Shown here in pieces: positions 2,639-54,687 of a stretch of DNA of 64,000 nucleotides; position 1 is the first letter of the stretch, and each line of letters begins with the position of its first letter. The notes beneath the pieces were generated by a model. It was not told where the DNA came from and searched no databases. It worked only from the letters and a program-made list of their open reading frames with translations. Both the position numbers and the translations under genes were made by a program. The DNA comes from a virus (taxonomy: Duplodnaviria > Caudoviricetes): IMG/VR virus record IMGVR_UViG_3300037247_001786, positions 352,001 to 416,000 of that record; one strand, 5' to 3'.

Positions 2639-3634
2639 ATGTTTGATTTTTTAGGTTTAAAAAAGACCGGAACAACAGAAACAAAACAAGAGAGTAAACC
2701 TGTCGAAGTTTTAGATTCGATTGTAGATACATATGTCTCGGAGATACCAGAAATATCTGTTGACGTAGACGCAGAAAGACAAAGGCAAATAGAGGGTAGT
2801 GCTAAGGTATTAGACTTCTTTAGCAAAGAGTTATCCTCCACAACTTTTAATAATGAGAGAGAGGCTTTGTTGCAGAAAAAAAAGGAATATGAAGAAAAAA
2901 TTTGGGATCTCAAAATGACAGTATCTCAAAATGAGATTAACAAGTTGTATCCCAAAATAGATCTATCTTTTCTTTCTATGAAACAACCTAATAAAAATGG
3001 AGAAGAAGAGACAGACATATTTTCAAGCGATAAGATGAAAATAAAAAATATCATTTCTTTTACTCCCAAATTCTCTATTCATCAACTGGAAAAAAGAGGA
3101 AGCTCCTTCAATTTCCGGGCTTGTGAAATTGTTTTTGATATCGTCGGAAATGTGTCTAAAAAATATGCGATAAATGGAGTAAGCTTGCGAGCAGGATCAG
3201 TACATATTTTTGAACATCTTGTAAAAGTATATCATGATAAACAAGTAAAAATGATTAATGACACTGAGTTTCCTCGTTTTGGAGAGTCCTTACTGGGGGG
3301 AGCCAGATCAGTTAATCGTGTTCGTTGTGACTTTAATGTTCCAAGAGCAGGCGGTCGTAAATGGTTTCATCAAGATATATTATTCTCAAGCGAATTTAAG
3401 GGAATGATACCCTCAACCACCAAAAAGAAAATTGAAAAAGCGACAGATGAATTTGCTCGTCCAGATGGAACAGGATATGATGTCTACCTTATAAAAGAAT
3501 GTACCGACTGGGAAAGTAAAGCCATCACTAAAGACCCTCTTATAGTCGGAGTGTCTGGAGATCAAGCTTACCTTATCGATCATTTTGATTGTACCGATCT
3601 CGAAAAATATGTAAAACTAGAATTCGGAATATAA
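2639..3634 (+). CDS. Hypothetical protein, 331 aa
   Basis: Long ORF with own promoter and AGGAG RBS. Confidence 0.8.
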   Translation: MFDFLGLKKTGTTETKQESKPVEVLDSIVDTYVSEIPEISVDVDAERQRQIEGSAKVLDFFSKELSSTTFNNEREALLQKKKEYEEKIWDLKMTVSQNEINKLYPKIDLSFLSMKQPNKNGEEETDIFSSDKMKIKNIISFTPKFSIHQLEKRGSSFNFRACEIVFDIVGNVSKKYAINGVSLRAGSVHIFEHLVKVYHDKQVKMINDTEFPRFGESLLGGARSVNRVRCDFNVPRAGGRKWFHQDILFSSEFKGMIPSTTKKKIEKATDEFARPDGTGYDVYLIKECTDWESKAITKDPLIVGVSGDQAYLIDHFDCTDLEKYVKLEFGI

Positions 3635-4438: not shown

Positions 4439-4832
4439 AGGTTTTACACTAATCGAGTTAATGGTAGTTATGTTGATTGTGTCTCTTCTGGTAGCGGTGG
4501 CTATCCCAGTTATAAGTGGGAAAGTACAGTCGAAAGTACAGTCGAAAGAACAAGTACCGCAAAAACAAAGTATTGCGATTGTTGAACTGAAAAACGATTC
4601 GTTACTGATCCATCAAAATATTAATTACAAGATAATATTAAAACCAGCATTTCAAGGTCCTAATGTAGATCTCTATTTAACAGAGATACCAGATAATGCA
4701 GAGGTAATTATCGAGAACGGTAGGTATTATTTGCTATGGACTCCGATGACAGGGAGTACTCTAAGGACTACTATTATTACGTCTGCACCAAATCTTATGA
4801 AAGAACAAGATGTAACTATATTTGTAAAATAA
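4428..4832 (+). CDS. Type IV pilin-like protein (prepilin N-terminal cleavage/methylation motif)
   Basis: KG/FTLIELMVVMLIVSLLVAVAIP is a canonical class III signal peptide with E5; contains a 12-bp tandem repeat AAAGTACAGTCG. Confidence 0.85.
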   Translation: MKAKGFTLIELMVVMLIVSLLVAVAIPVISGKVQSKVQSKEQVPQKQSIAIVELKNDSLLIHQNINYKIILKPAFQGPNVDLYLTEIPDNAEVIIENGRYYLLWTPMTGSTLRTTIITSAPNLMKEQDVTIFVK

Positions 4833-53022: not shown

Positions 53023-53812
53023 AATGATTGACACAAAAGACAGCGGTATCGTAACAATAGAAAGAGCATTTTCTATTCCTGTTCCCGAAGAAACAAAGAC
53101 GTACAAGCCTGTCGGTAATGAGGCTCTTTGGAAAATGCTCCAGAGAACTGCCAATGTAAGAGGGCTGGAGTTAGGTACTCCTGAAATGGGACTCGCTCAA
53201 AAGGGACAGCGACTTTTTGGTCAAGTCGAGATTGTCAATCAAGACCATCTTGATAACGAAGTTCGTTTGATGCTTGGTTTCCGTAACAGCTATAACCGAT
53301 CGATGTCAGTCGGAATCTGTTTCGGAAGTAAAGTTTTTGTATGTTCTAATATGTGTTTTACGGGATATACTTCTGAAGATGAGGATGCGGTAGGTCAAGT
53401 TCATCATCGTCATCAAGCAAATGTATGGGAAGGGCTGCAAGAACGACTTAATGAGGCTTTGGATAAGTTCGAGGTATTCAAGAGCTATCAGAACGACTTT
53501 TACAGTAAGCTGAAAGAAAACGAGTTAACGGATGCGGAAGCCCATGATTTGATTATCAATTCAGTTCGGCATGAAGCAATTACGGCTAAAGATTGTTTCA
53601 CAGTTGCCGAAGAATGGGCGTTCCAGAATAGAGGCCCGCAAGATGATAGCGAAGAAGATAGATGGCATAAAGAATTCCTGCCCAGAAACGCTTGGAGCCT
53701 CTTCAATGCTTATACCGAGATACATAAGGGATTTCAGATAAAGAACCCCCTTGAAGCGAATTTGAGGTCTATCAAGATGAATAAGTTCTTTCATAACCAG
53801 TTTATGAGTTAA
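53023..53812 (+). CDS. DUF932-like protein
   Basis: LMLGFRNSYNRSMS...GSKVFVCSN...HRH...NAWSLFNAYTE; start taken at the first ATG. Confidence 0.75.
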
Positions 53813-53816
53813 GACA

Positions 53817-53853
53817 AAGAAGGGGAAGGACATCGAAAGTTCTTCCCCTTTTT
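53817..53853 (+). terminator. Rho-independent terminator
   Basis: AAAGAAGGGGAAGGAC-ATCGAAA-GTTCTTCCCCTTTTT. Confidence 0.8.
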
Positions 53854-53889
53854 GCCAGAGTGGTAAAAATTTAATCTTATAGTAGTATG

Positions 53890-54007
53890 ATGAGGCAGTC
53901 GGCGGAAAGAGAGTTGCCGTCAGAGCAAAGTTGCGGTCGAACCTACTCAAATATCGTAAAGTGCCTTGCAAGGAAACATGATATTCTTTGCCTGCCTCGT
54001 TTTTTTT
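53890..54007 (+). ncRNA. Box-driven structured small RNA
   Basis: ATGAGGCAG/CTGCCTCGT closing stem followed by T8; internal CGGCGG/TTGCCG and AATATC/GATATT helices; no ORF. Confidence 0.6.
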
Positions 54008-54116
54008 GTAATAGTATTTTGCCAGAGTGGTAAAAATTTAATCTTATAGTATTGTAGGATGTTCGAGAATTAACGCATTCGTGGTGAAAGCCCATTTGAA
54101 TATCCTGCATATTTTT

Positions 54117-54280
54117 GAAGTAATGAGGTAGTGGCGGTAAATGGTCAAGCTAGCCAATGTCCGATTGCATACGATTTACGCATTATGCCTCCTCATTTTT
54201 TTTGAAGTAATGAAGTAGTGGCGGTAAGCGACGAACTGCTATCCGATTGCATACGACTCTATGCCTACTTCATTATTTTT
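54117..54280 (+). ncRNA. Two tandem homologous structured small RNAs
   Basis: Shared GTAGTGGCGGTAA, TCCGATTGCATACGA and TATGCCT blocks; compensatory G:C to A:T change in the closing stem; each followed by a T run. Confidence 0.7.
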
Positions 54281-54687
54281 TACACTGAAAAAAGATATTG
54301 TATAACCAGTATGTAATTTATTATCGGACGTTAAAATAGCATAAGCTGTTTTCGTATATATTGTTAAGTTGGAGTAGTATTATGTGTAAGTTAGAATTTT
54401 TGGACAAGCATTTAGTATCACTGATAACGATTGTTATCTTGGCAGCAGTACTATTTGCGACAAGTGGTTGTGGGGTAGTCGATGGGGCTTTGCAAGATAT
54501 AGCTGGGACAGCTACTGCTTTAAGAGAAATCTCTAAGCCATTAGAAGAGAGAGCAAGAGCTAAAGATGCAGAAAGAAATGCAAAGTGGCTTACTATCTGG
54601 ACTATGCAACAGGAAGATTATAAAGAGATAGGGCATGAACCTAAAAAATTGCCTAAATTTCTTAAATTTGGTAAGAAATAGACATTA

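What the first reader, a model, noticed from the sequence alone, without database searches (positions are those of the whole stretch)
54117..54280. Tandem pair of homologous structured small RNAs with a compensatory base change
Seen: two roughly 75-80-nt units downstream of the box at 54019. Closing stems are AATGAGGTAG/CTCCTCATT and AATGAAGTAG/CTACTTCATT (G:C to A:T swap). Invariant blocks GTAGTGGCGGTAA and TCCGATTGCATACGA flank a hairpin of variable sequence, and GCATA/TATGC closes a loop of variable length; each unit is followed by a T tract. Inference: a multi-way-junction RNA with conserved single-stranded core nucleotides, the pattern expected of a ribozyme, protein-binding decoy or antitoxin mimic. 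I cannot match it to hammerhead, twister, pistol or a riboswitch I know.
Basis: partly seen in the sequence, partly recalled or inferred. Interest (0 to 1): 0.75.

Follow-up and report, generated by a model that had tools for sequence, protein, structure and literature searches.

The report
Paired three-way-junction small RNAs, megaphage
Two neighbouring copies of a previously uncatalogued ~70-base folded RNA sit behind an early promoter of a 461-kb marine-sediment phage; natural variants keep the fold through compensating mutations, so the RNA is real, but what it does is still unknown.

Summary
Two units lie on the + strand at 54118-54203 (type A) and 54205-54281 (type B). Each has a ~10-bp closing helix P1, a P2 arm with a variable tip, a 5-bp P3 hairpin and identical junction blocks. 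Each is followed by a T tract.

The window lies in a 460,978-bp phage with terminal repeats. The 'box' at 54019 is one of 42 copies of the phage's promoter in the window.

No Rfam family matches, even at E<=10. ARAGORN calls no tRNA here.

I found homologues only in very close relatives:
- a type A unit in L067;
- a type B unit in L070;
- a one-unit and a two-unit variant in contigs of two sequencing runs.

All nine substitutions in stems keep pairing: three double compensatory changes, one per helix, and three changes to or from G:U. No junction nucleotide changes among the four full sequences. The G:U pairs place the RNA on the + strand.

The units always sit between a box promoter and the conserved leader of a small lipoprotein gene. 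In other relatives that slot holds a plain hairpin or a tiny ORF.

Best reading (about 45%): terminator-clamped early small RNAs that act in trans by binding a factor at the conserved junction. Main rival (about 25%): cis-acting attenuators of the lipoprotein operon. Function is inferred and expression is untested. Other first-stage readers of this scan noted the same stretch in overlapping windows.

The parts
54019..54053 (+). Box promoter (TTGCCAGAGTG...TTATAGTAT) that heads the cassette. The inferred transcript start is about 35 nt after the first base of the box.
   Evidence: There are 42 copies in the window and 78 in the genome, 74 of them on the + strand. Several cassettes have an ATG at +35. 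This is the only box upstream of the units and of the lipoprotein gene.
54054..54116 (+). 5' hairpin RNA ('H5'), which starts at the inferred transcript start and ends in T5.
   Evidence: The fold has z = -3.95. It is 96% identical in relative L070 and present in the X6 contig.
54118..54203 (+). Unit 1 (type A). P1 is 54122-54131 with 54189-54197, with one bulged base. P2 is 54135-54163 with a 7-nt loop. P3 is 54167-54188 with a 12-nt loop. T8 is 54196-54203.
   Evidence: Covariance-model match of 48.9 bits with R1 and 105.9 bits with R2. The homologue L067:4747-4831 differs at 4 of 76 positions, all in stems and all keeping the pair. The three-way junction is 1.3 kcal/mol above this unit's own minimum-energy fold.
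54205..54281 (+). Unit 2 (type B). P1 is 54209-54218 with 54265-54274. P2 is 54222-54245 with a 6-nt loop. P3 is 54249-54264 with a 6-nt loop. T6 is 54276-54281.
   Evidence: The three-way junction is the minimum-energy fold, z = -4.0. The homologue L070:2004-2077 scores 84.7 bits and carries compensatory changes in P1 and P3 and a G:C to G:U change in P2.
53852..54010 (+). Neighbouring stand-alone RNA cassette. It consists of a box (53852), a ~115-nt multi-stem RNA 'U0' (53887-54007) and T8. The 5' 20 nt and closing stem of U0 resemble those of the units.
   Evidence: The fold has z = -1.95. The closing arm ATGAGGCAG/CTGCCTCGT plus a T tract is one of only three such arms in the genome. Its similarity to unit 1 is weak: score 28 against 12 +/- 4.5 for shuffles. 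The covariance models do not find it.
54288..54381 (+). Conserved leader module of the lipoprotein gene. It holds a covarying hairpin at about 54328-54360, followed by a Shine-Dalgarno sequence.
   Evidence: It is 83-86% identical in L067, L068 and L070, and also present in L069 and L089, with or without units upstream. The motif is unique in the genome, so it is not a recurring promoter class.
54382..54681 (+). 99-aa predicted lipoprotein gene (signal peptide ending ...ATSGC), downstream of every unit found.
   Evidence: ORF list, alignment A6, no Pfam family. Seven homologues were found.

Best explanation
The two units are paralogous genes, types A and B, for ~66-76-nt three-way-junction RNAs made on the + strand from the box promoter at 54019.

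Proposed mechanism:
1. P2 and P3 fold first.
2. The purine-rich 5' arm and pyrimidine-rich 3' arm then close P1.
3. P1 together with the following U tract ends the transcript. The RNA is released with both ends clamped in a helix.
4. The locus therefore yields a nested set of short stable RNAs (H5, H5+A, H5+A+B). Only read-through transcripts reach the lipoprotein gene.
5. The invariant junction and internal-loop nucleotides (J1/2 UGG, the U.U/A.R internal loop of P2, J2/3 AUU, and the CG that opens the P3 loop) form a specific binding surface.
6. I commit to the reading that the RNAs act in trans, early in infection, by binding a protein as a decoy or RNP scaffold. The variable hairpin tips are tolerated decoration.

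What is shown: the fold, the strand, the conservation pattern, and the position in the cassette.

What is inferred: transcription, termination at the U tracts, stability, action in trans, and the nature of the partner.
For: Fold and selection:
- Type B folds as the three-way junction at minimum energy in both genomes.
- RNAalifold on the four sequences returns P1, P2 and P3.
- 95.1% of cells pair, against 35-53% in slid controls, and 0 of 500 shuffles reach the covariation score.
- Within type A (window against L067) there are 4 differences in 76 nt. All four are in stems and all keep the pair: G:C to A:U, U:G to C:G, G:C to G:U.
- Within type B (window against L070) there are 5 stem substitutions and all keep the pair: A:U to G:C in P1, C:G to U:A in P3, G:C to G:U in P2. 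The only other differences are in the P3 loop.
- No junction base changes among these four sequences. Over the same comparisons the lipoprotein CDS is 88-89% identical and its leader 83-86%.

Strand:
- G:U pairs occur in several columns.
- Minus-strand model scores are 22 bits, against 108 bits on the plus strand.
- The promoters and T tracts all point the same way.

Promoter link:
- In L067 a diverged version of the box lies directly upstream of type A, so that the inferred start (by analogy with the +35 rule) falls 2-3 nt before P1.

Indications of action in trans:
- Unit content varies among close relatives while the lipoprotein and its leader stay. The combinations are A+B (window and X2), B alone (L070, X6), A plus a diverged long hairpin (L067), a plain hairpin (L068), and a tiny ORF (L069, L089).
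- Type A in L067 keeps its core although it lacks a clean U tract.
- The neighbouring RNA U0 has a similar closing arm and is a stand-alone box-to-terminator gene with no ORF behind it.
Against: - No expression data exist for these units.
- Only four full sequences, plus two partial variants, are available. All come from near relatives, so the statistical power is low.
- Type A's three-way junction is 1.3 kcal/mol (window) and 3.5 kcal/mol (L067) above its minimum-energy fold.
- A stem with a 46-56-nt multi-branched interior is an atypical intrinsic terminator. The simple terminator scan did not call it.
- Every unit found sits upstream of the same lipoprotein gene. That gene has no box of its own, and its upstream module is not a recurring promoter. 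This pattern fits a cis role equally well.
- No candidate partner protein co-occurs with the units in the short contigs available.
- One junction base (54132) varies in the X6 variant.
Confidence: 0.45

Rival explanations
1. Cis-acting attenuators, riboswitch-like or protein-dependent. The three-way junction would be a sensor whose closing helix P1 is itself the terminator stem. Binding of a ligand or phage/host factor at the conserved junction would favour P1 and stop transcription before the lipoprotein operon. Two sensors in tandem would sharpen the response.
For: - All units found lie between a box promoter and the conserved leader of the same lipoprotein gene.
- The lipoprotein gene and the following 48-aa ORF have no box of their own.
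- The leader module is unique in the genome, so it is not a recurring promoter class.
- Every variant of the slot holds at least one hairpin plus a U tract.
- The anatomy is that of a small aptamer: conserved junction, variable tips, P1 with covariation, tandem copies.
Against: - The number and type of units change among near relatives with the same gene. Some relatives have none (L068, L069, L089).
- Type A in L067 has no clean U tract, yet its core is unchanged.
- U0 has a similar P1 arm but has no gene to regulate.
- The distribution is very narrow for a ligand sensor.
- No Rfam riboswitch matches.
Confidence: 0.25
2. Base-pairing antisense RNAs on the plan of P1/P7 C4 or P4 CI RNA. The clamped three-way junction would present the P2 and P3 loops as seeds for mRNA targets. 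Types A and B would then have different targets.
For: - The hairpin tips are the parts that differ between types A and B, and also among natural variants.
- Size and overall shape resemble C4. This resemblance is from my own knowledge, not from a tool.
- The 3' U tail would suit Hfq-type chaperones. This is inference.
Against: - Perfect complement runs of at least 10 nt to the rest of the phage genome number 64 for unit 1 and 68 for unit 2. The longest are 13 nt and 12 nt. By my own back-of-envelope estimate this is about what chance gives; no shuffled control was run.
- By eye, no convincing match to the downstream leader was found, only 6-mers.
- The most conserved parts are the junctions, not the loops.
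- The Rfam C4 family does not match.
- The host genome is unknown, so host targets could not be tested.
Confidence: 0.1
3. Only tandem intrinsic terminators, or a DNA-level repeat (for example a miniature inverted-repeat element or a protein-binding site). The interior would have no RNA function of its own.
For: - P1 plus a T tract looks like a terminator with A-rich and T-rich flanks.
- The covariance models cross-hit ordinary terminators through P1.
- L068 carries a plain hairpin with a similar arm in the same slot.
- Copy number varies between relatives.
Against: - The interior is under structure-preserving selection. There are compensatory changes in P2 and P3 and no junction substitutions among the four full sequences.
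- G:U pairs would be C.A mismatches in DNA or on the other strand.
- There are only two copies in 461 kb, both local.
- The phage's ordinary terminators are short GC hairpins, for example 53817-53853.
Confidence: 0.1
4. A new self-cleaving ribozyme that releases the units from the common transcript.
For: The units are in tandem on one transcript, with a three-way junction and conserved unpaired nucleotides. No tool result speaks for cleavage.
Against: - No match to any Rfam ribozyme at E<=10.
- The junction strands are only 3, 3 and 0 nt long, shorter than the hammerhead core.
- U tracts already provide the 3' ends.
Confidence: 0.04
5. Mimic of a type III antitoxin RNA (pseudo-ToxI), neutralising a host abortive-infection endoribonuclease.
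For: Tandem direct repeats of a structured RNA in an early phage region. This is a resemblance only.
Against: - The units are 82-87 nt apart and are three-way junctions. They are not ~36-45-nt pseudoknot repeats.
- No toxin gene is adjacent.
- No Rfam match.
- Single-unit relatives exist.
Confidence: 0.03

Closest known systems
C4 antisense RNA of phages P1/P7 and CI RNA of P4 (Rfam C4 family). Comparison from my own knowledge.
   Same: A phage-encoded RNA of about 70-77 nt. Both ends are held in one closing helix and two hairpin arms emerge from a junction. It is encoded in the leader of the operon it precedes.
   Different: There is no sequence or structure match in Rfam. C4 and CI are cut out by RNase P and act through loops complementary to sites downstream in the same operon. 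Here the 3' ends are U tracts, the loops show no clear complement, and the conserved parts are the junctions.
Small three-way-junction riboswitch aptamers such as the purine riboswitch, and tandem riboswitch arrangements. Comparison from my own knowledge.
   Same: About 70 nt. P1 closes a junction with conserved unpaired bases and the two arms have variable tips. It lies in a 5' leader, copies are in tandem, and P1 is linked to a terminator.
   Different: No Rfam riboswitch matches. P1 itself, rather than a separate hairpin, is followed by the U tract. The distribution is confined to a few near-identical phages, and unit number varies with the same downstream gene.
HK022 put RNAs (putL/putR). 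Comparison from my own knowledge.
   Same: Two homologous ~70-nt folded RNAs just downstream of early phage promoters. They were recognised through compensatory differences between the two copies and they affect termination in cis.
   Different: put is two stacked stem-loops that suppress downstream terminators. These units are three-way junctions that themselves look like terminators. No test was possible.
phi29 packaging RNA (pRNA, Rfam).
   Same: A phage RNA built on a three-way junction, with variable loops and a conserved fold.
   Different: There is no Rfam match. pRNA is 120-174 nt and its loops pair between molecules. The loops here are not conserved complements of each other. The locus lies among early cassettes, not packaging genes.
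Ordinary rho-independent terminators.
   Same: A GC-containing stem flanked by A-rich and T-rich runs. The covariance models cross-hit real terminators through P1.
   Different: A structured interior of 46-56 nt, under selection, replaces the usual 3-8-nt loop. The consensus terminator scan does not call them.

Membership tests
Any Rfam 15 family (4227 models, including hammerhead, twister, pistol, hatchet, HDV, C4, pRNA, ToxI, riboswitches, 5S, tRNA) | Covariance-model match at or near the family's gathering score | tested here: not met
   At gathering thresholds the window gives only tRNAs at 21.4-33.9 kb. Positions 53800-54400 give 0 matches even at E<=10 with lax filters. L067 and L070 also give none.
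tRNA / tRNA-like | Cloverleaf with a 7-bp acceptor stem, a T arm with a 7-nt T loop, and an anticodon arm | tested here: not met
   ARAGORN finds 33 tRNAs in the window, none at this locus. P3 loops are 5, 6 or 12 nt, P1 is 10 bp or more, and there is no D arm.
Hammerhead ribozyme | Three-way junction with a CUGANGA...GAA...UH core in the junction strands | tested here: not met
   The junction strands are UGG, AUU and 0 nt. No Rfam match.
Intrinsic (rho-independent) terminator | Stable stem immediately followed by a U tract | tested here: inconclusive
   P1 plus T8 or T6 is present in both window units and in L070. Against this, the interior is 46-56 nt, the consensus scan does not call them, and type A in L067 has only an interrupted U-rich tail. 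Termination itself was not measured.
Riboswitch (generic) | Leader location, conserved ligand-binding core, and an expression platform coupled to P1 | tested here: inconclusive
   Leader location and a conserved junction are met. Ligand binding is not testable here. Unit number varies with the same gene.
C4 / CI-type antisense RNA | Loops complementary to target sites in the downstream transcript | tested here: not met
   In the phage genome the longest perfect complement runs are 12-13 nt, about chance level by my own estimate, with no shuffled control. By eye, only 6-nt matches to the leader were seen. Host targets are not testable.
Type III toxin-antitoxin antitoxin array (ToxI-like) | Tandem ~36-45-nt repeats directly upstream of a ToxN/AbiQ-type endoribonuclease gene | tested here: not met
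   The repeat period is 87 nt. The downstream gene is a 99-aa lipoprotein without a Pfam family. Single-unit relatives exist.

The most novel reading that the evidence does not exclude
The unit is a new class of sensor-terminator: an aptamer whose own closing helix is the terminator stem. A small molecule or protein binding at the three-way junction would directly decide whether RNA polymerase stops. Two different versions (A and B) in series would gate an early phage lipoprotein, possibly a superinfection-exclusion factor.
Probability: 0.15. Interest if true: 0.75.

Novelty: new variant of a known kind. Interest (0 to 1): 0.5.

Why it matters
Huge phages carry many RNA genes, but few of their small RNAs beyond tRNAs and tmRNA are described.

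This locus is a compact 'RNA island' of four promoter-driven folded RNAs within 430 nt of an early region. One motif, in two subtypes, is supported by natural compensatory mutations and is absent from Rfam.

It shows a simple design: a terminator stem used as a clamp around a selectable structured insert. This may be a general way in which phages evolve new stable RNAs.

If the conserved junction binds a host protein, it would add to the few known RNA-based host-takeover or anti-defence tools. If it senses a ligand, it would be a new regulatory RNA class.

The practical limit is that the family is so far confined to a handful of near relatives of one uncultivated phage.

Tried and rejected
Catalogued RNA families:
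- Rfam at gathering thresholds and at E<=10 gave no match at the locus.
- ARAGORN found no tRNA or tmRNA here.

Motif scans for the two conserved blocks:
- IMG/VR gave 0, 5 and 0 hits.
- JGI metagenomes gave 4 hits.
- GTDB genomes gave 10 hits.
- Every hit lacks P1 or lies in GC-rich or probably coding sequence, and the models do not score them. I treat them as chance.

Covariance-model searches:
- R1 and R2 find only the two units in the 461-kb genome.
- They find nothing in four related huge phages at 57-65% portal identity.
- They find nothing next to DUF932 homologues in relatives.
- They find nothing in the other fetched loci.

Searches for relatives through proteins:
- The flanking DUF932 protein and the lipoprotein have no homologue in those four phages.
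- Protein-guided scans of IMG/VR found no close relatives of the early region.

Expression:
- No RNA holder was listed for the stretch. This says nothing about expression.

Targets:
- A complement k-mer scan of the phage genome gave hits of a size that chance would give, by my own estimate.

Ideas considered and dropped:
- Anti-Shine-Dalgarno mimicry. CCUCCU in the P1 3' strand is not conserved in type B.
- A mini-ORF AUG-NNN-UAG inside P1. The codon change is tied to the compensatory partner, so it reflects RNA structure.
- A palindromic kissing loop GCUAGC in type A. My reconstruction from the indels suggests it is lost in the X2 variant.
- Resemblance of UGGCGG and GGUAGUG to 5S rRNA. The Rfam 5S model does not match.
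- The alternative pairing of GCGGUAAAU with AUUUACGC in type A. It is the minimum-energy fold in the window but not in L067, and there is no covariation for it.
- A link to the Y-RNA-like array noted elsewhere in this genome. The models do not find it, and I could not place it from the offsets given.

Full report
**Where the window lies.** The window is bases 352001-416000 of a 460,978-bp virus record with direct terminal repeats. The genome is 34% G+C. The window holds 33 tRNA genes at 21.4-33.9 kb. Portal, DNA polymerase, helicase and a CCA-adding enzyme are encoded elsewhere in the genome. Earlier notes of this scan call it a marine-sediment megaphage. The runs that hold the stretch are marine sediment or marine metagenomes.

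**Check of the observation.** The sequence shows the two units exactly as described.
- The exact blocks GTAGTGGCGGTAA and TCCGATTGCATACGA each occur twice in the window, and nowhere else in the genome.
- The closing arms, the GCATA/TATGC hairpin and the T8 and T6 tracts are at the stated places.
- Unit 1 lacks one base in the 3' arm, so one base of P1 is bulged.
- The two units align far above shuffled controls.
- The 'box' at 54019 is one of 42 copies in the window and 78 in the genome, 74 of them on the + strand. Its layout is TTGCCAGAGTG-N14-TTATAG, and several genes have an ATG at +35. I read it as the phage's cassette promoter.

**Fold.**
- Unit 2 folds by itself into a three-way junction with z = -4.0. 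P1 has 10-14 bp. J1/2 is UGG. P2 is CGG/CCG, then a 2x2 internal loop, then a 4-bp tip. J2/3 is AUU. P3 is 5 bp and stacks directly on P1.
- Unit 1's own minimum-energy fold is different. The homologous junction lies 1.3 kcal/mol higher.
- No Rfam family matches at E<=10.

**Search for homologues.**
- Motif scans of IMG/VR, JGI metagenomes and GTDB genomes gave only chance hits.
- Four related huge phages at 57-65% portal identity lack the units and also lack the flanking genes.
- Relatives of the upstream DUF932 gene at 62-81% identity have no unit beside it.
- The downstream lipoprotein gave the way in.
  - L067 (lipoprotein 90% identical) has a type A unit at 4747-4831.
  - L070 (88%) has a single type B unit at 2004-2077, preceded by the same 5' hairpin.
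  - L068 (67-70% by the two alignments), L069 (58-59%) and L089 (58%) have none.
- Contigs of other runs laid on the window add two partial variants.
  - X2 has two units, with indels in the P2 tip of unit 1.
  - X6 has one unit, joined directly to the lipoprotein leader. Its P1 3' arm is CCTACCTCATT, and it has a T>C change at 54132 in J1/2.

**Covariation.** The model-based alignment of the four full units (A4) gives these results.
- 95.1% of cells pair, against 35-53% when the 3' partners are slid by 1-3 columns.
- No shuffle of 500 reaches the observed covariation score.
- There is a double change in each helix: P1 G:C/A:U, P2 C:G/U:A, P3 C:G/U:A.
- RNAalifold independently predicts the same three helices.

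Read pair by pair within a type:
- Window type A against L067 differs at 4 of 76 positions. All are in stems and all preserve the pair.
- Window type B against L070 has 5 stem substitutions, all preserving the pair, plus changes confined to the P3 loop.
- No junction or internal-loop base differs among the four sequences.
- Over the same comparisons the lipoprotein CDS is 88-89% identical and its leader 83-86%.
- The several G:U pairs, and the weak minus-strand scores (22 against 108 bits), place the RNA on the + strand.

Four sequences from near relatives give little statistical power. The tool's own caveat about related sequences applies here.

**Context.** The alignment of the four loci shows a modular slot between a box-type promoter and a conserved ~95-nt leader of the lipoprotein gene. 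The slot holds:
- H5 + A + B in the window;
- H5 + B in L070 and X6;
- A plus a long hairpin in L067, whose arms resemble type B's P1 (z about 4 over shuffles);
- a plain hairpin with a P1-like arm in L068;
- a 24-codon ORF in L069 and L089.

The lipoprotein gene and the next small ORF have no box of their own. The leader motif is unique in the genome. Read-through from the box at 54019 is therefore the simplest source of their mRNA. That is inference.

In L067 the promoter sits immediately before P1.

The neighbouring cassette (box at 53852) encodes a ~115-nt multi-stem RNA, U0, with a similar closing arm and T8 and no gene behind it. It is a stand-alone RNA gene. A 48-codon frame starts at its +35 ATG, but it runs through the terminator and into the next box. 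Its similarity to the units is weak and the models do not find it.

**Mechanism.** The shown facts fit RNAs whose two ends are clamped by a helix that, together with the U tract, also ends the transcript. Their junction is under sequence selection.

I weigh a trans-acting, factor-binding small RNA at about 45%. Three facts favour it.
- Unit content varies freely among near relatives while the gene and its leader stay.
- Type A keeps its core in L067 without a clean U tract.
- U0 is a stand-alone gene.

A cis-acting attenuator or sensor of the lipoprotein operon is at about 25%. It explains the constant downstream neighbour and the missing promoter.

Lower-weight readings:
- Antisense action, about 10%. 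It has no target support in the phage genome.
- Terminator-only or DNA repeat, about 10%. It does not explain the selection on P2, P3 and the junction.
- Ribozyme, about 4%. No evidence.
- Antitoxin mimic, about 3%. No evidence.

**Novelty.** No catalogued family matches, and my literature searches returned nothing on such an RNA. The kind of thing, a small structured phage RNA in an early leader, is known. This motif and its terminator-clamp layout are new variants. The narrow distribution and the lack of any functional data keep the interest moderate.

Noticed in passing
window 53852-54010: This is a stand-alone RNA cassette: a box, then a ~115-nt multi-stem RNA (U0) closed by GAGGCAG/CTGCCTC plus T8, then the next box. 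Its first 20 nt resemble the 5' end of the units. A 48-codon frame starts exactly at the +35 ATG, but it runs through the terminator and into the next box.
   Followed up: partly
window 54054-54116: A 55-nt hairpin RNA (z = -3.95) starts at the inferred transcript start and ends in T5. It is 96% identical in L070 and present in the X6 contig. One substitution keeps a pair (G:U to A:U) and one breaks a pair (C:G to C.A).
   Followed up: partly
window 54288-54381, with L067, L068, L069, L070 and L089: The lipoprotein gene has a conserved leader: GATATTGTA...GATATTATCGGACG, then a hairpin AAAAnnnn/nnnnUUUU whose stem covaries (UAGC/GCUG, CAAC/GUUG, AUGAC/GUCAU), then a Shine-Dalgarno sequence. 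The motif is unique in the genome. It could be a gene-specific regulatory hairpin or a promoter.
   Followed up: partly
L067:4715-4750, L068:2930-2965 and 3160-3200, L070:1905-1940, L069:4790-4815: Relatives carry diverged versions of the box (TTTCCAGGCGTT...TGGTA, CTCCAGAGGTG...TTATAGTAT, ATCCAGACAG...) at the same cassette positions. The promoter family therefore appears to evolve together with each phage lineage.
   Followed up: no
L067:4831-4903: A long perfect hairpin (z = -7.3) plus T5 sits in the place of the type B unit. Its arms are homologous to type B's P1, with one A:U to U:A flip, but the interior is different. It may be a third, degenerate or remodelled unit type.
   Followed up: partly
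L069:4815-4888 and L089:495-568: In more distant relatives the slot between the box and the lipoprotein leader holds a 24-codon hydrophobic ORF (MKDF...IALC) starting at the +35 ATG, instead of RNAs.
   Followed up: no
genome 459104 and 459236 (outside the window): The 11-nt tip of unit 2's P2 (GACGAACTGCT) has a perfect complement twice, 132 nt apart, on the + strand inside a repeat of the 971-aa ORF at 458066-460981. It is about chance level by count, but it is the only doubled hit.
   Followed up: no
genome 268125-270491 (outside the window): A 788-aa protein matches phage tRNA nucleotidyltransferase (CCA-adding enzyme) families. This fits the phage's large RNA repertoire.
   Followed up: no
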